Positions 1 to 36,230 of a DNA stretch of 64,000 nucleotides are shown here, piece after piece. How positions within the stretch are numbered: position 1 is the first letter of the stretch; every line of letters begins with the position of its first letter. The position numbers and the translations under genes were made by a program. This stretch comes from Sarea resinae (lineage: Eukaryota): NCBI GenBank assembly GCA_026026165.1, contig JAPEUD010000022.1, positions 1 to 64,000 on the forward strand, written 5' to 3'. The notes under the pieces are model-generated. The model saw only the letters and a program-made list of their open reading frames with translations. It was not told the origin of the DNA and ran no database searches.

Positions 1-227
<227 letters not shown>

Positions 228-416
228 CTCTGCCGTTAACCCTTCAATCTATCACGTGGCGGTTACGTCTTTCGTATTTTATGTAGTTGAATCATACATA
301 TACAACCTCAATCGCTTTAAAGCGAGTCGTCATACATCTACAATAGCACATACAACTGTATAGTACAAGAGCGCAGTGAAGATTACATACCAGAGTATAC
401 ATGCGCGAATGTCCGT

Positions 417-596: not shown

Positions 597-682
597 CCTG
601 CGGCTGCGGGTACCAGGTACGTACCGCTATTTATCAGATCCGTCGATAAGGCACCTGATCAGTGTCCCAAGTACACAGTAGT

Positions 683-1008
683 CTGAGACGTTCGACGATA
701 AATGTCGAAAACTCAAATATCGTCGGACGTCTCAGAACGACACCCAAATTTGAGACGTTCGACGATTTTCGAAGTTATCGACTTTTATCGTCGAACGTCT
801 CAGCAAGGCCACCCAAATGTGAGACGTTCAACGATTTTTGAGTTTTGTTCAATTTCCGTCGAACGTCTCTGAGGATGATTCGCTCTGGTCTGAGACGTTC
901 GACGATTTTAGAAGTAGTCGACTTTTATCGTTGAACGTCTCAGGCAACCATGAAAATTGGAGGCGTTTGACCATGTTCGAGTGTCGGAAAGTTCGTTGAA
1001 CGTCTGTG
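683..1008. repeat. Tandem array of ~5 palindromic units (~69-bp period)
   Basis: TGAGACGTTCGACGAT alternates with its reverse complement: 683-700/718-735, 751-766/787-802, 820-834/857-869, 890-906/927-943, and a degenerate pair at 960-1005. Confidence 0.92.
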
Positions 1009-1599
1009 ACTCGAACGCTCCGATCTCAAATGATTCGATCAAGCACCTCAAGAAACCGTGAATCGAATGATCAGGCTCTAGAACGCGACCGTCGGCCAGT
1101 AGTTGCTGCAGCAAAGTCTGATGTATTGATCTGGCAAGTCGGAAAACGTTGGTTGCTGGTCTGTTCTTTGAAGGCGTCTTACCGATCACTCGATGAGATG
1201 CCGACTCCCGGTGCAGAGCCGACGAGAGGCTATGCGATCATTGAAGCATCGCAGATGAGCACCGGCGTAGCGGTTTACGGTATCGATGCCGACCGCAGCG
1301 TAGGTGACAAGACGTGTGACAAGCGTTCAAACCATGGATTGGCGTGGGACGTACGAGCAGAGAGGCTCTTTCGGTGGGTCATGTCAGCATCCTGCAAAGA
1401 CGTAGAAGAGCGACCGGTAGGAACTTGGTTCCCTTACCTGCTTCATCGATCCCAAGCCAAATATGTTCCACATTGAGAGGTTGACGCCATTCGAGCGATT
1501 CGGAGCGTTGGAGGCCTATAGAGGTGGAGGAGAATGATTAGAAATGATACGGTAAAAGTCCGTGGCGGGAAAGATGTGCAAGTGCGATGTGAGCAGTGA

Positions 1600-5159: not shown

Positions 5160-6000
5160 TAACGCGCTTTCATGTATTTGATTTCAATCGAACCGTTAGA
5201 ATCTCATTGCACATGTCTGAAAAAGGTCCGCTTAAAGCTTTTCCCCTATTTTGCTAAATTATCTTTAAAATATACTTTGGGTCTAGAATCTTAAATTTCT
5301 CTAACAAAAACGATGCAGATTAATTTAGGATTTGCCTTGAAATATTAGAGACATAATGTTATATTTACAAGGTTCAAATTAAGATCAGGAAGCTACTCTA
5401 CACGCACTTACTAGAAGAAAATCAAGGTTCCTAATATTTGAAAATAGTGATTATTAAGAGGAACAAAGATAATCAAGTTAAAAATGTACTAGAGAGGTAA
5501 TAACAAACTAAATGTATCGTCTAAACTCAATAATCTATCTATAGACATAACTAGCCTACTAGAATATTCGAATAATTATTAATTAAAAAGGACCTATAGT
5601 ATAGTATAAGGTCTAGTAAATAGGCAAACCTGTTTCTACATGCGCTAAGAAGAATACTATAACCCGGCTCGTCTAGGCTATGCCAATTTGCCTACTATAC
5701 AGCAGCGGACCTCATGTATATAAAGTAATAAAAGCATATTTTATCAAGCAAGTTAAGCATAGTTATATACTTTAATATTATAGAAGCTCTATAAGGTCCT
5801 ACTATATTCTACTAAGCTGTACTAGTTTCTATAGGTGTATAGAAGCTTCTAGAGATATCTCGAGTTCTGTATTAGTCTGTAACAGTCGAGATATTTTACG
5901 GTGACGAGAATTAGAGTTATATTTCAATATCCACGGATAACAATCGAGGTCTGATTCTGGGATAAGAAATATAACATAAGTTAATACAACGTGGTCTAAT
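5160..6000. mobile_element. AT-rich, RIP-like mutated repeat relic (copy 1)
   Basis: Abrupt AT and TpA enrichment, no ORFs; homologous in inverted orientation to 29.1-29.8 kb; family not identified. Confidence 0.7.
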
Positions 6001-6859
6001 CTGTAGATATTTGGCCGCAGTCAATCAATTGACAATGGAAAAAGCAAAAGCGCAATCCATCTACAGTCGGCGGATGCTATCCAGATGCAAGATTCTGATC
6101 GTGCGTCAGTCATCCCGTAACACCGTTCCCCCTCGTTGACGTGTCGTTCGGCAGGCTCACTTGATTCTACTGAGCGTTTTCCGGAAAAGCCATATCATAC
6201 GGATGGGTCAATCACAAGAAGCCTTGGTTTACTTGATGTTGCGCTTTGGAAGCTTGCATAGTGACGTAGGCAGCAGAAGGGCAGCGGGAACGACAGATTT
6301 GCAGGCTTATAACCTGTGGCAGTACGCTCGGGCAATCGAGAAGGTGTTTTCTACTCCTAACTTACCGCTCAATTAATTACACACGCGGGAGGCCCGGATT
6401 ATATGGTGGGAGAGCTTCGGAGAGTACGACGGAAGGGTCGGTCATACTCGATGTCTCCGTCAATCATAGTACTAGGCTCCTAAGAGAATCGTTAGAATGT
6501 AGCCAAACAAAGACAATGGATCAAGACGGGTACTGAGGGTGACTTAAGTCTTCTCCTAAGGCGTTCCAGCTTTTGAACCGGTCGTCAAAACGTGTGGCCG
6601 AGAAGGGCTGTTGTTGTCTTCGCAGTTGTACTTCGGATTGTGCATTCAGCGCCGATTCAGCATCTATCTGAAAGGGAAGGAATCCGTCAGTACCGCAGAG
6701 GGCAGGCTGTCTGGGGACCCACCCATCAAATTAGTCACTTCGCCATGTCTAGCGTCCTGGCCGCCGGTATTGCTTAGAGCCCGTCCTATGTGATCTTTAG
6801 CGGATGATTCTTCTTCTAACATCTTACACGGAAGGTTGATGTGAATTGATGTTAGATAA

Positions 6860-11500: not shown

Positions 11501-14500
11501 GCGTCCGGCAAAAGCTATGGGGAACGTTGTGGTATGATTAGTAGCTGCAAGAAATTGAGAAGGGCTAGGTACGCAACTTGGAGGGGGGAGATCTAACTTC
11601 CTGACCGTATCCTCAAAGCCGTTCCGTTTGCATTGTGCGATAAATATGGTGTCATGCAATGCCTTGGAATGTCAGCATCATCCGTGGTCGATGAATAGTA
11701 GAGGATTTAAGAAGACAAATTAGAGAAACGGTTACCGTCTCTGAAAGAAATGTTACCGTAGCCGGCATCGACAGAGTTGTGATGCGGCATGGGGCAATTG
11801 GTTTGATGTAGTGAGAGACACGGCAAACCCACCGTCGTTCCCTCCATCAAGAATAAGAACCCTCATCGGCGGCAATCTCATTGTGATCGGAACCCAGAGG
11901 ATAGAGTGGGTTATGTTGGATGAGTGGATTTGACCCCGTTGAAGCAGGACCTATTGAAGCGACGAACCGTTAGCCATTGCGTGATAACATGCTCGAGCAA
12001 ATGCAGGTCACTCATAGTTTCTGAGATCTCCATGACTCAGCCCCACTCAGAGTTGGGGTTGTGAAAGGCGCGGCAACACTGAAAGCAGTAGCAAGTACCC
12101 GGTATACCACAGCAAGCCCACGGTAGCTGGAGAGGCCAAATCTTTGCCTGGTGGTATTCATTGCGGTCGTTTGTCTGTTGGCGATACAGCTAAGCAAAGT
12201 AGTGGGCTGCCAGTTGTTTACTAAAGTATGAATGAGACTCACGGATGCATGGCCAATTTTCATCGAGGGTCTGCAGGAAGAAACGTCGAAGCGACTTCAA
12301 GAATTCATTCGTGGCCCTGTCCAAAAGTGACGACCAGATCCGTAAAGTCCAGGCTCCGATGGGTGAGTAATTCATGATACCCCTCTGCAGTATCTCATAC
12401 AAATAATGGAATAATTGCGGAATATGTATCGACAGAGCCAGAGGACCAGCAGATTTGTGTCCAATGCCGTTTGTGTCTTCGTGGTGTCTAAGAGGCGGAC
12501 GATCCGTGTCGAGAGGCAATGTTGAAGAATGACGGAGATCTATTCGAGTGTCAGGCCAGTGATTCCAACGCGGATGCAATGGCAGATACTTCTCAAGGCC
12601 CCGGAAATAACTGATGAAATTGGTGGATTGGAAGATGGGCGTACAGATTGGCACAGTCGAGGATTTGGATACAATGGACCCTCTGCTCCTACCGACGATC
12701 GGTGCCTGCGTTGCGCGAGTTCAAGCAGATGAAGAGCCATAAAGCAATCCTAGTGAAGTCATCCCGTCTTTCCTTCACTTTTGAAGGAAGACTCGGTGCT
12801 CTTGCTGCTGCCTGGCGGTTGCAATGGCTTGTTGCTGTGACGTCACGATGCACGCAGATATATGAGCTGAGGATTAAGGTATCTGGCCGACGGTACCTGA
12901 CTTGGACGCATACTGGTGGTTTCCCTAACCAGATCGCGTTATTAAATATCCTACCATATTGTCAAACCAGCTCAGCAGGTCCGATCCCTCGCTAGAATTC
13001 CAGCAGCGGCGGCGCGACTGAACTCTCTTTGCATGCTCCGTGATCACCCTAGGCACCCAGGTCAGTTTTAATTTCAGTGTCACGTACAGATCACTGATCA
13101 CAAGAAGGTCCAAATGGAAAATCGAATCGTACATCTCCTCAGCGGTCGGATTAGAGCGAATATATGGCGAGGATGCTCTCTACTTTGAACGCCCAGGCAT
13201 ATTGTCGCCCCTCGGTATTGTGGTGGAAGACAACAGTCCAATGGCCGAGAATGTCGTCACAAATGCGCCCGGAATGCCACTCCCTCGAAAGCACCTGTTG
13301 GTTGGTTGTCGGCCACTACTTTCCACGCCCTTTGCATTGAGGGGCGACAAATGAATACTGTTCTCGGTCCCAGAAGGTGCTTGTCTTGAAAGCTACAAAG
13401 ACCGCAAGGTTTCATCTCTGGCTGGAGCTTCCACTGTCCACGTCGATGCCGGAAAGAGGGCTGGCAAGGACCTCGAGTACTTATAGATTGCTGACCCATG
13501 TCATCTGTAGGTTGACAAGCCGCTCGTGCTTTCACGCACTGGTCGCGGCCGCCGCCAGTACGCCAGAGTCAACTACCTCCGCAAACTCTTCTGTTTCAGT
13601 AGGCCAACGAAACCGAAAGCCGCCGATGTGCTTACTATGCAGGTATCCTTGGACGAAACTGTAAGTCCGGTCTTCGTCTGATCCCAACTGCTTATCTCAC
13701 TGACCGAATGCCCGTTATAAAGCCTGAGCCATATTCGTACCTCACATAATGCGCCACTGGGAACTGAGCCTCGTCACAATATGCAATAGGTGCGTACTCT
13801 TTGACGCAATAAGCTGGTATTACCTCTGTCGGCGTAGATTCACGGCGAGATAACAGGACAAAGTTCGTCATTGCGCCCCTTCGAACTTCACTACCACCCG
13901 AGCCATCTATGGACGGCGCGGAAGAGTCTATTGATGGGTCAGGACGAAAGCTTGTGGCCGACGAAACGGCGGAAGGTGTGATCAATCTGTGCTTGTCATG
14001 TTGCCGGCTTCCTCTACATTGTTTGCGTCTCACATCTGTTTTCCTTCGAGACTACGCACGTCTAGTCCGGCCTCGCCTTGACTTTCCCTTCCGAGGCCCT
14101 GCGCACCTGCTGACTTGCTCATTCAATATGATGCTGCCACTTCGGCCGGACTCTATCGAAATTTCGGTTGCTGTGGACCCTGTCAAAGTTTCCTGGTCAC
14201 CACGGGCCATCTTGGCAAGGGCACCGCATACTGTAGGAACCGTCGAGTGAAACCGGTCGTTGATTCTTGCTCTGCCCGGACAGCTGTCGGTCGGCTCCAC
14301 GGACAATGTACGCCGAGCAAACATCCTGCTACTTCATTGTCTACCGCCCGGACTCTTCAACCCGTCGGACCCTGTGGAAAGTCAGCTCCTCCCTCTACCG
14401 CGGCATCAGCATGGTGACTTCCTATTAACATCGGAGTCTCTGCTACAATATCCTCGTAACGACATCTCAAAGACAAATAAATTCGGGAAACGATGGTCGG

Positions 14501-21296: not shown

Positions 21297-22875
21297 ATGG
21301 CGGAAATAGCTAAGCCGATCCTCTCCCTGAACTGGCGTGATGATAATGCCAGAGACTCAAGGATCATAGCTGCCATCCACCATATCATGCTCAAAATAGA
21401 CGCTGGCGATACGTCTGTGGTGGAGTTTGCTGCCACCAAATCGAAAAAGGCAATCCAACTCGAAGAAATCGAGCACGACGGCGAGAAGACTTGGATGCTT
21501 GTACGCCGCAGCAACCCAAGTCCACGCGGCTACGATGCCCATGAAGATTTCTGGATTCGATTCATCACAATCGGGATCCAAATCCTCGAAATGATGGGCA
21601 ACAAAGAGCCCATCAAATATCGAAGGGTGCAGTATCAACACCTCGTTGACGGTCTGACGTACGCACAGATAACCAAGGGTCTGAAAGACTGGGCCGTCAC
21701 TATACGCGTGCACCCCAAGAGCTTCGGGCTTCAAAACCAACCTTCCGGCGAAGTCTGGCTGGCCCATGGTCTCAGCATTGCCGCCAAGGTAGTCAACAAC
21801 ATTTTCGAGTATCGAGCCACAGAGAAAACAGACAAGGTGGTCTTGAGGGAAACGAAAGGCATCCCAGACATGATTGCCAGCCTCCGAGTTGTCAAGAGAA
21901 ACAGAGACGAGTCGACGGGGTGGCTCGATATTGTCCCCCGTGGTGTCATAGTCACGGAACACCGAAACATTGGTCTTGCTCTGACAGAAATCCAGCGTCG
22001 CTTCTCGGGCATGATTATCGTCATGGTATGTCTCGAACCCCAAGTTCATGAACCCAGCTGATATTTCCAGACCGGAGGCTTCCCTGATAGCTCCACCACC
22101 GAATTTCTTCATCTCCTCGAGGTTGATCCGCTCCTCAAAGATCTGCCTTTCTTATTCTTTTCGGACCACGACTTCTCTGCATTCCAGATGTTCATAGCAC
22201 TAAAGTACGGCTCCGCACATGCAGCCTGGGCCAGTCCCAGTCAAGTTTGCAAACGACTGACATGGGCTGGACCCACCATCGACGAACTATACGCCGCTGT
22301 CCACAGTTATGCCAGTGGGCCCCGCATCGAAGTTCAGAGAAGAAACCACCCAGATCGGGACATTGAGCGTCTACAAGAAGAGAATTCATTGTGGGAAGAG
22401 GCCAAAGTGCAAGAAATTGCTAACGTGTTGACCTCCAGAAAGATCACCAAAGCCGATCACCTTATCATCAAAGGTCTTCGGAATGCAGGTTGTCTAGCTC
22501 TAGAGCCGAAGCTCAACGCCGAGATCGAATACATGCTGTCTGCGGAGCTTGAAGGCAAATCAGTGAGTGACCGGCGCGTCTCAGGTCCAACGACGACGTA
22601 CTGACTTTCGTCAGAAATTCGGTCTTGCCCAACTGGCAAGGATCCGAAGCAGTGGCATGGAGCTATGGATCGCAGACGAGGTCGATCGCTGGAACCATTC
22701 CGAGCCGGAGGAAGACTATGAAGAGCGCGCTCCCGCAGAGAATCGTTCGCAGGACACGCGACGCTTTGTACAGGCTGCCGAGCATGCCAGGAAACAAGAC
22801 GAGCACAAGATGGAAAGCAGCCGTCTCATGCAAACCATTTTCAGAATGACATCACGATCAGAAAGCTCAGCTTAG
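21297..22875 (+). CDS. Divergent Spo11/topoisomerase VI subunit A-like protein, 493 aa, 3 exons
   Basis: Exons 21297-22025, 22071-22562 and 22615-22875 (GT..CTGAY..CAG introns, phase 0). Winged-helix motif IKYRRVQY(113), Toprim VIVTE(221)H, MTGGFPDSSTTEFL, FSD(275)HD(277), LKYGS and C-terminal EIEYML..K occur in Spo11 order and spacing. Confidence 0.85.
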
Positions 22876-28999: not shown

Positions 29000-29900
29000 G
29001 CTTTCGTAGGCTAGCTACCTTTTTGCACTAGATTATATCTAATAGAAATCAGTTGGTCTGTGGACGCGTGCTAAACTGGTTGTGCTATATAATCTCAAGG
29101 AGCTTTTAATCAACTTTTAGCCTTGTACCTGATCCCCTAGCATGGTGTATTTGCGGCAGAATTTTAATTCGTCTTTATATTATGAAGCAGCCTTGATTCT
29201 AATCACCCTAAAGCACCTAGAGTATTACAGACTAACACAGAATACTCTAGATATTCCTAAACGCTTTTATACACCTATAGAACCTAGTACAATAGAATGC
29301 TATAGACGATGAGAGAATTATCTAGAAGACAATACAATTTCTATAATATTAGTTATATAACAACCATTGTCTACCTTCTATAAAGTGTGTATACTATTAT
29401 TTCATATGTTCTTATCATGTATGTTAGTCTATAAAATAATTCTTGCAAATTTATATATATCTAATAGTATAATATCTTACTTCCTAAGACTTTTTCTTTA
29501 AAAGATATAATATGTTTATAATATATATTTAATACTTCTTTTTCTAAAGATTTTCTTATAAAACTTTCATAATATTTTTCCTCATATCTTTTTAATAAGT
29601 ACACTTACCAGGATTATGTCTCCCGCGAAAAGATGGCCGAGGTATGCATGTCCAACTACGACCCCTCGTTCTCCAGTGCGCTGCGCTATATAGTGGGCAA
29701 ATAGGCATAGCCCGAACGAGCCGGGTTATAGTAGTCTTTTTGGATGGCTCACGTGGGAACAGGCTTGCCTACTATTTACTAGTCCTTACAAAAGAGAATC
29801 AAGTCAAATATAACTTTACTTTAGAAAGGATAGAAAATTTGATAGTCTTTTATTCTAAAAACCATTAGAAGTCTGCCAAGTAAATACTAACACGTAAAAC
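29000..29900. mobile_element. AT-rich, RIP-like mutated repeat relic (copy 2, inverted relative to copy 1)
   Basis: The reverse complement contains ACTATAACCCGGCTCGTTCGGGCTATGCCTATTTGCCCACTATA and TGTACTAGGTTCTATAGGTGTATA, matching 5656-5700 and 5818-5841. Confidence 0.75.
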
Positions 29901-30401: not shown

Positions 30402-30531
30402 CCTGCTGCATTGCAAGCGTTACATCGCGGGTCACACCGCAGGCCTCGATAGCATCTCAACAGCACCCTGCTGCATTGCAAGCGTTACATCGCGGGTCAC
30501 ACCGCAGGCCTCGATAGCATCTCAACAGCAC
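30402..30531. repeat. Exact 65-bp tandem duplication
   Basis: CCTGCTGCATTGCAAGCG...CTCAACAGCAC at 30402 and 30467, identical. Confidence 0.97.
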
Positions 30532-34179: not shown

Positions 34180-36230
34180 TGGATTGCCATCCGGCGGTGA
34201 AGAGACAGCAAACCCGGATCTAGTGGTCCCCCCAATCACCAAATGTAATTCAATCAAGTTTTGGACCTCCGTCCGGCTGAAAGGGTCAACCAACCCAGCG
34301 AGGCAAAAGCATGGAGAGTTCTCACTCGATCGCAATCTCAGAGGCGATCATCGCAGGTTCGGAGTAGATCCCACTCGACCTTGAAGAAAGGCTAATCTGG
34401 GTATAGGATTCCCATCCAGCTGTACGAGGCAGCTCACTCAAAGACAAAGTGTTCTCACACGGCCGCGGAGGCGATCAGCTTGGGTTCAGATTCACTCACT
34501 CAATCGTCAAGACAGTCCGTTCGAGTTTGAGGCCACCGCCTGGCTGTGAGAGACAGCCGCCCCAATTGTCGGAGACAATCAAGTCCAGATTTCGATTGTC
34601 ATCTAGCCTGAAAGCACAGCCTGTGCAGATTTGGATTTCTCAATCAACTGTGAGAGGGAGTTGTCTCGGGTTCAAAGTCGACTCACTTGGCCGCAGAAAA
34701 ACGGGCCCCTTTGGATTGAGGATTCCCATCCGGCTGAAAGACACAGCCGCTTCAGGTTCGGAGTTTGCCCACTCAACCATGAAATACGGTCCAAATCGAT
34801 ATGTGATTCTCATCCGGTAGGATGACAAGACCCGCTCAGATTCAAAGTTCTCACTCGACATGGGGAAGGTGTCCGTTCTGATATATGATTCTCATCCGAC
34901 TTGGAGAAAAAGCCCATCCGAATTGAAAGTTTCCACTTGACCTTGGAAGAAGATTCATCTAGATACACGATTCCCATCCAGCTTTAAGAAAAAGCCCATC
35001 CATCTTCGGAGTTCTCACTCAATCATGAAAAATAATCCATCTAGACATAGGATTCTCATCCGGCCAAAAGCCTTGACCTCGACGGAAAGGAAGCTAGAGC
35101 TTTCACTCGGCTTCCGCGGATCAGAGTTCTCACTCGACGGTTGAAAACCGTCTACCTAGATGTAGGATTCTCATCCGACTTGAAGGACAAGTCCATTCGA
35201 ATTTGGAGGTCTCACTCAACCATGAAGAACGGCCAATCTAGAAATCGGATTCTCATCCGGCCAACAGTCTCGGCCTCGACGGAAAGCAAACCGGAGCTTT
35301 CGCTCGGCTTCCTCGATCAGAGTTCCCACTCGATGGTCAGGAACCATCTATCCAGATTTTGGATTCTCATCCAGCTGTCAGAGACAGCCCCCTCGGTGTC
35401 CGAATTCTCATTCGATTGCAAGAGGCAAATATCCCGGGGTCAGAGTCAGCCCACTCAACTGTAGAACACAGTCCAACTGGATGTAAGGGATTCTCATCCG
35501 GCAGCAAAAGGCAACCAGCTCACGTTCGAAGTCTCCACTCGATCTTCGAAGAAGATCCACTTGAGTACGAGGACCTCTGTCCGGCTGTTCGAGACAGCCA
35601 ACTCGGTGTTTGATTGGGGCTCCCGCCCGTCTGCGCAAGGCGCGACTACTCTGGGTATTCAGAGTCCTTTCCCACTCGATTGTAAGAGACAACCAACTTG
35701 AGGTTTTGGACCTGCGTCCGGCTGTAAAGACAGTCAACCTGGAGCCGGAGACGAAGTCCGGCAGGGCTCTCGCCCGAGCGTCAAAGACACTCCATCTTGA
35801 GTAAAGGAATCTTCATTCCGCTGCTAAAGGGCAGCTAGCCTGTCGTTCTGGATTCCCATCCGTCCGTCACAGACGGCTTCACTGGCTTGAAACAGTCGAT
35901 CTGGATCCAGGATTCCCATCCATCTGCATACAATAGACCACAAGACAGTATTGGACCTTCGTCCAGGCGCTGAAGAGACGACATCACTCGACTGTCGAGG
36001 AAAGTCGGGCCTGTGTTTAGGATTTCCATCCGGTCTGTGGAAGAGACAGACTAAATTCAGATAGGGGATTCTCATCCTTCCGTGGAAGAGACGGCGTCAC
36101 TCGACTGTTAAAGGACAGTCCCCCTATATTGAATAATTCTCATTAGCCCGTACATCACAGACAAAGATTCGTTTCGGGTCGACATCCGGCCATAAGGAGG
36201 CCTGGGCCTAGGTTTGAAGATCCCCACCTC
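34180..36230. repeat. Non-coding array of ~41-bp units, each a conserved core plus a sequence-variable 17-nt hairpin
   Basis: Cores GGATTCTCATCC and GAGTTCTCACTC alternate (same-type spacing 81-84 bp at 34720, 34804, 34886, 34969, 35050); each is followed by an inverted repeat; no long ORF. Confidence 0.9.

What the first reader, a model, noticed from the sequence alone, without database searches (positions are those of the whole stretch)
21297..22875. Intact, highly divergent Spo11/Top6A-like gene 21 kb from the telomere
Seen: splicing three ORF fragments gives a clean 493-aa protein. Known: Spo11 uses a winged-helix Tyr (yeast Y135, in RDIFY) and Toprim acidic residues (E233, D288, D290). 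Here RRVQY113, E221 and D275-x-D277 occur in the same order with nearly the same E-to-DxD spacing, and GFPD..T..FL and KYGS are also present. Normally conserved neighbours are changed (EK to EH, GKGYPD to TGGFPD). Inference: this is not the canonical single-copy meiotic SPO11 but an accessory, potentially active DNA-breaking paralogue. It could be a selfish meiotic nuclease or the mobilising enzyme of an undescribed element.
Basis: partly seen in the sequence, partly recalled or inferred. Interest (0 to 1): 0.9.

Follow-up and report, generated by a model that had tools for sequence, protein, structure and literature searches.

The report
Extra Spo11-like DNA-cutting gene in fungus
Near a chromosome end of the resin fungus Sarea resinae lies an intact gene for a very divergent relative of Spo11, the enzyme that cuts DNA to start meiotic recombination; it belongs to a fast-changing, multi-copy fungal gene family that seems not to have been described.

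Summary
Window 21297-22875 (+) is a three-exon gene with GT..AG introns of 45 and 52 nt. Its 493-aa product is identical to an NCBI-annotated hypothetical protein of Sarea resinae. It starts 21.2 kb from a (CCCTAA)n telomere.

It is a true full-length Spo11/Top6A homologue:
- Pfam Toprim hit above threshold.
- Family profile against M. jannaschii Top6A, E 8e-12.
- AlphaFold model, pLDDT 92; Z 29 to M. mazei Top6A and Z 22 to yeast Spo11.
- R109/Y113, E221 and D275/D277 align with the catalytic residues and are almost invariant in relatives.

It is probably not the ordinary meiotic SPO11. It belongs to a distinct family of at least 150 clusters at 50% identity. All 18 looked-up hits that carry a name come from Lecanoromycetes, Chaetothyriomycetidae, Sareomycetes or Xylobotryomycetes. 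The family has an invariant "EH" signature and almost no Pfam TP6A_N match. At least two diverged copies occur in Sarea and in Pyrenula. Branches are very long, and dN/dS is 0.22-0.31 in relatives.

I could not test whether a canonical SPO11 also exists in this genome, or whether the gene is expressed. I found no support for a mobile element built around it. Verdict: a new variant of a known kind, and moderately interesting.

The parts
1..125 (.). Context: telomere repeat (CCCTAA)n at the chromosome end. The gene's ATG lies 21,172 bases inside it.
21297..22025 (+). Exon 1, residues 1-243. Holds the N-terminal region (1-80, conserved L-x-W-R motif), the 5Y-CAP winged-helix region and the first Toprim strand.
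   Evidence: The ORF ends in intron 1. About 20 fragmentary relatives end at residues 242-250 of the query, as expected if the intron position is conserved.
21621..21635 (+). Codons for R109-R-V-Q-Y113. Y113 (21633-21635) is the putative catalytic tyrosine; R109 is the conserved arginine four residues before it.
   Evidence: Aligned with REAYY of M. jannaschii Top6A and with KRELYY of a canonical Spo11. In relatives, Y in 46 of 48 and 62 of 64.
21957..21962 (+). Codons for E221-H222. E221 is the Toprim glutamate; 'EH' is the family signature.
   Evidence: E in 59 of 59 and H in 57 of 59. 'EH' in 84 of 94 sequences covering the column. Aligned with the E of IETSG and of IVEKE.
22026..22070 (+). 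Intron 1, 45 nt, GTATGT..CAG. It is in frame but holds a TGA.
22071..22562 (+). Exon 2, residues 244-407: Toprim core (TGGFPD, SDHD, KYGS) and a helical insert.
   Evidence: Pfam PF21180 on this exon alone, E 6e-6, 26.8 bits
22164..22172 (+). Codons for D275-H276-D277, the Toprim DxD metal-binding pair.
   Evidence: D275 in 41 of 42 and D277 in 41 of 42. Aligned with DGD of Top6A and DHD of a canonical Spo11.
22563..22614 (+). Intron 2, 52 nt, GTGAGT..CAG.
   Evidence: The junction residues GKS|KFGLAQL match the conserved KF-x-L of relatives.
22615..22875 (+). Exon 3, residues 408-493 plus TAG. Holds the end of the Top6A-like fold (to about residue 435), then a poorly conserved tail with one long helix (453-491).

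Best explanation
The gene encodes an intact, probably catalytically competent member of a distinct, fast-evolving, low-copy paralogue family of the Spo11/Top6A (type IIB topoisomerase A-subunit) superfamily.

The family is found so far in Pezizomycotina of four classes: Sareomycetes, Lecanoromycetes, Eurotiomycetes (Chaetothyriomycetidae only) and Xylobotryomycetes. It is most likely an addition to the ordinary meiotic SPO11, not a replacement for it.

Inferred mechanism, by homology:
- Two protomers assemble on duplex DNA.
- Mg2+ is held by E221, D275 and D277 of the Toprim domain.
- Y113 of the winged-helix (5Y-CAP) domain, helped by R109, attacks the backbone. This leaves the protein covalently joined to the 5' ends of a double-strand break.
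- The conserved N-terminal module corresponds to the part of Top6A that holds the B subunit. This suggests an unidentified partner.

Shown: an intact gene, the fold, the conserved catalytic residues, multiple diverged copies, and purifying selection in relatives.

Inferred: the catalysis, the dimer, the partner, and any role. My best guess at the role is a lineage-specific DNA-breaking function in the sexual cycle or in genetic conflict.
For: Gene intact and identical to an annotated protein. The region shows no RIP-like mutation bias.

Homology:
- Pfam Toprim above threshold.
- 16 of 16 and 111 of 150 relatives hit the same model.
- Family profile against PDB: 1d3y_A E 8.4e-12 over profile positions 94-356, 2zbk_A E 1.2e-9, 9o0g_A E 3.5e-5, yeast Spo11 8urq_A E 0.063.
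- hhalign against a canonical Spo11 (L013, which has TP6A_N plus Toprim): probability 98.7%, E 2.3e-16, catalytic residues in register.

Fold:
- AlphaFold2 with 59 sequences, pLDDT 91.8, pTM 0.86.
- Foldseek 9o0g_A E 4e-13, TM 0.78 by target; 8urq_A E 2.4e-9.
- VIA Z 29.1 (336 aa, rmsd 3.0, model 16-435) to M. mazei Top6A and Z 22.3 to yeast Spo11. JetD-type nucleases reach only 10.7-11.7.

Catalytic residues conserved: Y113 46 of 48, R109 45 of 48, E221 59 of 59, D275 41 of 42, D277 41 of 42. Similar figures in 150 sequences.

A distinct family:
- 175 representatives at E<=1e-3, 27 at E<=1e-30.
- 'EH' in 84 of 94.
- TP6A_N in only 2 of 150, best E 3.6e-4, against 95% of a 641-member canonical Ascomycota cluster.

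Multi-copy:
- A second Sarea resinae protein, P0011.
- Two Pyrenula proteins.
- Two paralogue groups on contigs that share a name prefix, in three assemblies.
- Teloschistaceae genera split over at least 3 subclades.

Selection in relatives: dN/dS 0.22-0.31 at dS 0.33-0.48.

Background: opisthokonts are reported to have one SPO11 (passages of Brinkmeier et al. preprint).
Against: - The key point, a separate canonical SPO11 in this genome, was not tested. No genome is held.
- P0001 resembles a canonical Spo11 only over residues 214-310 (24% identity, pairwise E 2e-10). This is too weak to surface in a 1.8-billion-protein search. The lack of canonical Spo11 among the 150 listed hits therefore says nothing about orthology.
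- One family member (Phaeomoniella chlamydospora, P0027) is named 'putative meiosis-specific topoisomerase spo11' by its depositors.
- There are no expression data.
- Only 30 of the 150 listed hits were looked up by name, and 18 carried one. The taxonomic range may therefore be wider than stated.
- The second Sarea copy lacks the conserved C-x-x-L-x-W-A-G-P-T stretch in its annotated model. It may be degenerate or mis-annotated.
- Residues next to the catalytic ones differ from the usual (EH for EK, TGG for GKG). The effect of this is unknown.
- The dN/dS values come from other family members, not from this gene.
Confidence: 0.62

Rival explanations
1. It is simply this lineage's meiotic SPO11: the true orthologue, evolving so fast that Pfam's N-terminal model no longer sees it, with occasional recent duplicates.
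For: Full Spo11 architecture with all catalytic residues. One member was named spo11 by its depositors. The class-level topology of the family tree agrees with vertical descent. No canonical SPO11 was demonstrated in the same genome.
Against: - Two copies at 29% identity in Sarea, and two in Pyrenula.
- At least 3 old paralogue lineages inside Teloschistaceae.
- All 18 named hits of the 30 looked up, plus Exophiala, fall in four classes. None is from the heavily sequenced Eurotiomycetidae, Sordariomycetes, Dothideomycetes or Leotiomycetes.
- The canonical Ascomycota cluster carries TP6A_N in 95% of members, against 2 of 150 here.
- spo11 was recovered in Lecanoromycetes (Lepraria, Stereocaulon) by DIAMOND with a representative fungal protein (passages of PMC11515122), and in Onygenales (passage of PMC3445971). 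Neither paper shows which type was found.
Confidence: 0.12
2. It is a non-catalytic or decaying duplicate: a DNA-binding or regulatory pseudo-enzyme, or a gene on its way to loss in a gene-poor subtelomere.
For: It sits in a 50-kb subtelomeric stretch where it is the only one of 86 ORFs of 110 aa or more with an above-threshold Pfam hit. Branches are very long. Neighbours of the catalytic residues are changed. The sister copy P0011 lacks a conserved segment. Dead Top6A paralogues exist in archaea, according to notes of this scan that I did not check.
Against: The reading frame and splice sites are intact. Catalytic residues are kept in nearly all relatives, which a pseudo-enzyme family would not need. 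dN/dS in relatives is well below 1. The whole-chain model is confident.
Confidence: 0.1
3. It is the DNA-breaking enzyme of a selfish or mobile element.
For: - Multi-copy, fast-evolving and patchy in distribution.
- In the window, ~80%-identical inverted repeat relics (5607-5911 and 29196-29788) in low-GC patches bracket a 24-kb segment that holds the gene.
- In 3 of 4 independent metagenome loci a transposon-type Ulp1 protease gene lies within 10 kb. In 3 of 4 there is a single-module AAA ATPase gene.
- Type IIB A-subunit relatives on prokaryotic mobile elements (Mini-A, Topo VIII) are a precedent; this is recalled and named only in the abstract seen.
Against: - Nothing but the gene itself is shared between the window and 11 related loci (tblastn, E 1e-4).
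- The Ulp1, AAA and chromo genes are absent from the window.
- There are no near-identical copies.
- There are no terminal repeats or duplications next to the gene.
- The tree follows taxonomy at class level, and same-species copies are sisters.
- There is no viral structural relative: 0 matches at E<=1e-3.
Confidence: 0.07
4. It is a Toprim nuclease of an immune-type system, working like Wadjet JetD (hydrolytic cutting, no covalent tyrosine link).
For: Weak JetD_C/DUF2399 Pfam hits in 26 of 150 relatives and weak PADLOC JetD hits in 5 of 5 tested (P0001 E 0.0033). An NLR-like gene (NPHP3_N plus ankyrin) and AAA ATPases lie near some relatives.
Against: The fold is far closer to Top6A/Spo11 than to JetD (Z 29.1 and 22.3 against 11.7 and 10.7; Foldseek E 4e-13 against 0.67). 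The R-x3-Y motif typical of type IIB enzymes is conserved. The JetD hits cover only the shared Toprim core.
Confidence: 0.06

Closest known systems
Canonical eukaryotic Spo11 (SPO11-1 type; yeast Spo11 in PDB 8URQ/8URU)
   Same: Same domain order: N-terminal module, 5Y-CAP winged helix with R-x3-Y, and Toprim with E and DxD. VIA Z 22.3 over 296-302 residues. hhalign to a canonical Spo11 gives probability 98.7% with the catalytic residues in register. The motifs G(Y/F)PD..T..FL, DHD and (K/F)GS are shared.
   Different: Pairwise similarity is limited to about 100 Toprim residues at 24% identity. Pfam TP6A_N is not matched. 'EH' stands in place of 'EK' and 'TGG' in place of 'GKG'. There is an extra helical insert (about 313-365) and a 58-residue tail. 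The family is multi-copy and taxonomically patchy, whereas opisthokonts are reported to have one SPO11.
Archaeal topoisomerase VI subunit A (M. mazei 9O0G/2Q2E, M. jannaschii 1D3Y, S. shibatae 2ZBK)
   Same: The best structural and profile matches. Z 29.1, 336 of 360 residues, from model residue 16 to 435. Profile E 8.4e-12. The match includes the N-terminal part that binds Top6B in the holoenzyme; that role is recalled.
   Different: 12-15% identity. NCBIfam Top6A equivalog models score 19 bits against cut-offs of 424 or more. No Top6B-like gene was seen in the window by Pfam. It is a eukaryotic, intron-bearing gene with no close prokaryotic relative among the 150 listed hits.
Plant and protist SPO11-1 / SPO11-2 / SPO11-3 paralogy
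   Same: A precedent for several Spo11/Top6A paralogues with split roles in one genome (passages).
   Different: Those paralogues are ancient, slowly evolving and each single-copy. This family is restricted to some Pezizomycotina, evolves fast and duplicates repeatedly. Its relationship to them was not tested by phylogeny.
Wadjet JetD; Mini-A and Topo VIII of prokaryotic mobile elements
   Same: A shared Toprim core, and stand-alone A-type proteins outside the classical enzymes.
   Different: JetD matches only at Z 10.7-11.7. Mini-A and Topo VIII were not compared here, because no sequences or models of them were at hand.

Membership tests
Spo11/Top6A superfamily (type IIB topoisomerase A subunit) | Toprim domain with the conserved Glu and DxD | tested here: met
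   PF21180 32.9 bits against a cut-off of 24.1. E221, D275 and D277 align with those of Top6A and of a canonical Spo11. They are conserved in 59 of 59, 41 of 42 and 41 of 42 relatives.
Spo11/Top6A superfamily (type IIB topoisomerase A subunit) | 5Y-CAP winged-helix domain carrying the catalytic Tyr with an Arg four residues before it | tested here: met
   Pfam TP6A_N itself does not hit. The family profile aligns R-x3-Y with REAYY of 1D3Y and with KRELYY of a canonical Spo11. The model superposes over this domain. Y in 46 of 48 and R in 45 of 48 relatives.
Spo11/Top6A superfamily (type IIB topoisomerase A subunit) | Whole-chain fold like solved members | tested here: met
   Model pLDDT 91.8. 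Z 29.1, 26.9, 26.4, 22.3, 21.5 and 19.4 to Top6A/Spo11 chains; the next unrelated family scores 11.7 or less.
Spo11/Top6A superfamily (type IIB topoisomerase A subunit) | Mg2+- and Tyr-dependent DNA cleavage with a covalent 5' protein link | not testable with these tools
   Needs biochemistry.
Canonical meiotic SPO11 orthologue of fungi | One copy per genome | tested here: not met
   Two family proteins carry Sarea resinae names (P0001, P0011) and two carry Pyrenula ochraceoflavens names. The copies are 29% identical.
Canonical meiotic SPO11 orthologue of fungi | N-terminal domain recognised by Pfam TP6A_N, as in 95% of the 641-member canonical Ascomycota cluster | tested here: not met
   No hit for P0001 at E<=10. 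2 of 150 relatives hit at E<=0.01.
Canonical meiotic SPO11 orthologue of fungi | Groups with SPO11 orthologues in a phylogeny and is the only Spo11-type gene in the genome | not tested
   No genome is held. No canonical Pezizomycotina sequences could be fetched.
Canonical meiotic SPO11 orthologue of fungi | Meiosis-specific expression and need for meiotic breaks | not testable with these tools
   No RNA run is available. Needs genetics.
Topoisomerase VI proper (A2B2 enzyme) | Scores as a Top6A equivalog and is accompanied by a Top6B (GHKL ATPase plus transducer) gene | tested here: not met
   NCBIfam: 19.3 bits against a cut-off of 424. No GHKL or transducer Pfam hit among 113 window ORFs. The rest of the genome could not be searched.
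Wadjet JetD-type Toprim nuclease | JetD N-terminal domains and a JetD-type fold as the best match | tested here: not met
   Only the shared Toprim core matches (PADLOC E 0.0033, residues 239-288). JetD chains score Z 10.7-11.7 against 29.1 for Top6A.

The most novel reading that the evidence does not exclude
Some filamentous ascomycetes carry, beside SPO11, a second, rapidly diversifying set of catalytically active Spo11-like enzymes. These would make programmed DNA breaks outside the canonical meiotic pathway. Possible settings are genetic conflict (drive or defence), subtelomere or repeat recombination, or a remnant TopoVI-like machine with an unrecognised partner subunit. This would overturn the view that opisthokonts have a single Spo11.
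Probability: 0.22. Interest if true: 0.85.

Novelty: new variant of a known kind. Interest (0 to 1): 0.6.

Why it matters
Spo11 is the universal initiator of meiotic recombination. Fungi and animals are taken to have exactly one (passages of Brinkmeier et al.).

A separate fungal family that keeps the full catalytic apparatus, yet duplicates and diverges quickly, would be a second source of programmed, protein-linked DNA breaks. It would also be a natural experiment in how far the Spo11 scaffold can change and which partners it needs.

If it instead proves to be the only SPO11 of these fungi, it is still useful. It would be an extreme case of Spo11 divergence that current domain models miss, which matters for 'meiosis toolkit' surveys of lichens and black yeasts.

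Tried and rejected
- Whole-genome search for a canonical SPO11: not possible, because no genome is held.
- The search for homologous proteins with the family alignment returned only the query. With the Capronia Toprim region at E<=10 it returned only family members.
- phmmer of the single protein against PDB: nothing meaningful.
- Single-sequence AlphaFold: pLDDT 38, discarded.
- Expression: no RNA holder listed.
- Homodimer prediction (two copies of residues 1-440): no verdict, score 0.01, and the alignment was not used.
- Viral structure library: 0 matches at E<=1e-3.
- Earlier notes of this scan: nothing on this genome or sequence. Three notes on dead Top6A paralogues of Odinarchaeia have no bearing here.
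- Literature: seven full-text searches found no description of a second fungal Spo11 family. Papers outside the library and all supplementary files were not seen.
- First try of the metagenome scan failed for lack of a conserved stretch. It was repeated with a 7-sequence alignment.
- Subtelomeric position as a family trait: rejected.
- Conserved neighbours as partners: the Ulp1, AAA and chromo genes recur near metagenomic relatives but not in the window. The Ulp1 type is the transposon-associated kind. I read this as a repeat-rich neighbourhood, not as an operon-like module.
Full report
**What is there.** The window begins with about 20 CCCTAA repeats (1-125), a chromosome end. At 21297-22875 on the + strand three open frames join through two short introns with standard fungal signals: GTATGT..CAG (45 nt) and GTGAGT..CAG (52 nt). 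The spliced product is 493 aa plus a stop. It is identical to a protein already in public collections, 'MAG: hypothetical protein M1819_002484 [Sarea resinae]' (P0001). About 20 fragmentary relatives called on unspliced contigs stop at query residues 242-250. Others start at 243-244, as expected if intron 1 is old and its position conserved. The conserved KF-x-L directly after the second junction supports intron 2.

**It is a real, full-length Spo11/Top6A homologue.**
- Pfam finds only the TOP6A-Spo11 Toprim domain (E 7.8e-8, 32.9 bits, cut-off 24.1) and no TP6A_N.
- An exhaustive HMMER search of 1.84 billion representatives found 175 relatives at E<=1e-3, the best about 34% identical.
- A profile of 16 of them hits M. 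jannaschii Top6A at E 8.4e-12 over profile positions 94-356, and S. shibatae Top6A at 1.2e-9. Yeast Spo11 scores only 0.063.
- In that alignment R-x3-Y lies on REAYY, the Glu on IETSG and the DHD on DGD.
- A canonical Spo11 turned up by chance in a GC-poor metagenome contig (L013; TP6A_N E 1.8e-15 plus Toprim E 3e-27). It aligns to the family profile with probability 98.7% and E 2.3e-16. R109 and Y113 lie on the R and the second Y of KRELYY, E221 on IVEKE, and DHD on GDHDPNG.
- AlphaFold2 with 59 sequences gives pLDDT 91.8. The single-sequence run was useless.
- The model matches M. mazei Top6A at Foldseek E 4e-13 and VIA Z 29.1 (336 residues, rmsd 3.0, model 16-435 on chain 9-368). It matches yeast Spo11 at Z 22.3. 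JetD-type nucleases follow at 10.7-11.7.
- Beyond the common fold there is a helical insert (about 313-365) and a poorly conserved C-terminal tail.

**Catalytic residues are under constraint.**
- In the 59-sequence alignment, among sequences with a residue in the column: Y113 is Y in 46 of 48 (one S, one F); R109 in 45 of 48; E221 in 59 of 59; H222 in 57 of 59; D275 in 41 of 42; D277 in 41 of 42.
- In all 150 listed hits the figures are Y 62 of 64, E 89 of 94 ('EH' 84 of 94), and D-x-D 103 of 118. Fragments add some alignment noise.
- For relatives on metagenome contigs, pairs with dS 0.33-0.48 give dN/dS 0.22-0.31. Closer pairs have too few changes to judge. These values are for other family members, not this gene.
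- The gene region shows no RIP-like bias.

**Why it is probably not the ordinary SPO11.**
- I looked up 30 of the 150 listed hits by name, and 18 carried one.
- All are Pezizomycotina of four classes. These are Sarea (Sareomycetes) and Cirrosporium (Xylobotryomycetes). They include Lithohypha, Capronia, Exophiala, Pyrenula and Phaeomoniella (Eurotiomycetes, Chaetothyriomycetidae). They also include a dozen lichen fungi (Teloschistaceae, Bacidia, Ramalina).
- Four lineages were checked. The rest are placed from my own knowledge.
- None comes from the far more heavily sequenced Eurotiomycetidae, Sordariomycetes, Dothideomycetes or Leotiomycetes.
- Sarea resinae has a second member (P0011, M1819_003424, 29% identical over 406 columns). 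Pyrenula ochraceoflavens has two.
- Contigs sharing a name prefix hold two paralogue groups in each of three assemblies.
- I built a tree of the 38 members of 300 aa or more. Three redundant rows (P0021, P0151, P0157) and all shorter rows were left out. It separates a Eurotiomycetes-plus-Cirrosporium clade from a Lecanoromycetes-plus-Sarea clade (SH-aLRT 99 each).
- The two Sarea copies are sisters (support 89) and so are the two Pyrenula copies (100).
- Gyalolechia, Pyrenodesmia and Teloschistes are scattered over at least three subclades. The median terminal branch is 0.84 changes per site.
- Only 2 of 150 hits touch TP6A_N. The nearest large Atlas cluster of Ascomycota Spo11 (641 members) carries it in 95%.

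**Limits of this argument.**
- No genome is held for the window. My capped searches did not retrieve a canonical SPO11 from any species that has the family.
- P0001 resembles a canonical Spo11 only over about 100 residues (pairwise E 2e-10). The big search could therefore not have listed canonical proteins, and their absence among the hits is uninformative.
- One member is named spo11 by its depositors.
- Papers report spo11 in Lecanoromycetes (passages of PMC11515122) and in Onygenales (passage of PMC3445971). They do not say which type.

**Surroundings and the mobile-element idea.**
- Of 86 ORFs of 110 aa or more in window 1-50 kb, only this gene has an above-threshold Pfam hit. Ordinary genes (fungal transcription factors, an MFS transporter, an FAA hydrolase, a glyoxalase) begin at about 51 kb.
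- Two ~80%-identical inverted repeat relics in low-GC patches (5607-5911 and 29196-29788) bracket 24 kb that include the gene. They are short, and nothing marks them as element ends.
- Eleven metagenome loci with family members fall into four independent ones. Within 10 kb, 3 of 4 carry a transposon-type Ulp1 protease gene. 3 of 4 carry a single-module AAA ATPase gene, 2 of 4 a chromo-domain ORF, and 1 of 4 an NLR-like ORF.
- None of these is in the window. tblastn of all window ORFs of 60 aa or more against the loci finds only the Spo11-like gene.
- The gene's 90%-identity cluster has one member on one contig.
- No locus has telomere repeats, and positions range from under 1 kb to over 50 kb from contig ends.
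- No viral structure matches.
- I therefore read the neighbourhoods as repeat-rich, accessory-type DNA, not as a conserved element.

**Mechanism and verdict.** By homology the protein should act as a dimer on DNA. E221, D275 and D277 would hold Mg2+, and Y113, with R109, would form a 5'-phosphotyrosyl link. The conserved N-terminal module (W13 in 33 of 34) corresponds to the Top6B-binding part of Top6A, which hints at an unknown partner. All of this is inference. A homodimer prediction gave no verdict (see Tried and rejected), and no RNA data exist.

Seven literature searches found no description of such a family. The current view is one SPO11 in opisthokonts. I rate it a new variant of a known kind, interest 0.6. 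The decisive test, a search of the complete genome for a canonical SPO11, is simple but was out of reach here.

Noticed in passing
window 1-230: The telomere (CCCTAA)n (1-125) runs straight into about 17 copies of the hexamer TTGCTG (125-230).
   Followed up: no
window 680-1010: Subtelomeric units of about 140 bp, each holding a palindrome (TGAGACGTTCGACGA ... TCGTCGAACGTCTCA), repeated at 73-92% identity.
   Followed up: no
window 5607-5911 and 29196-29788: Inverted repeat relics of about 80% identity. They lie in two low-GC (0.42-0.43) patches with TpA/ApT of about 1.0, 24 kb apart, with the Spo11-like gene between them. They are probably degraded copies of one repeat.
   Followed up: partly
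window 30402-30531 and 34300-35600: A perfect 65-bp tandem duplication, and a degenerate tandem array of 82-bp units.
   Followed up: no
window 1-50000: A gene-poor or orphan-rich subtelomere. Of 86 ORFs of 110 aa or more, only the Spo11-like one has an above-threshold Pfam hit. Recognisable genes start near 51 kb.
   Followed up: partly
L001 about 6000-6730 and 12016-13365; L006 19206-20912; L009 1647-3380 and 11774-13159; L011 8186-9700, 11824-13122 and 19400-19891: Family members on metagenome contigs have recurring neighbours. These are transposon-type Ulp1 (C48) protease genes, single-module AAA ATPases (Cdc48-D2/Vps4-like), a chromo-domain ORF and an NPHP3_N-plus-ankyrin NLR-like ORF. 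None of these is in the window.
   Followed up: partly
L013 7764-9218: A canonical Spo11 (TP6A_N plus Toprim) of a eukaryote with 20% GC, picked up by the FL[YF]F[SGA]DHD pattern. I used it as a comparator.
   Followed up: yes
P0006 (Teloschistes flavicans, 815 aa) and P0011 (second Sarea resinae copy, 415 aa): P0006 carries a C-terminal extension of about 330 aa with a Cys/His-rich stretch. P0011 lacks the conserved C-x-x-L-x-W-A-G-P-T segment. Either may be an annotation artefact.
   Followed up: no
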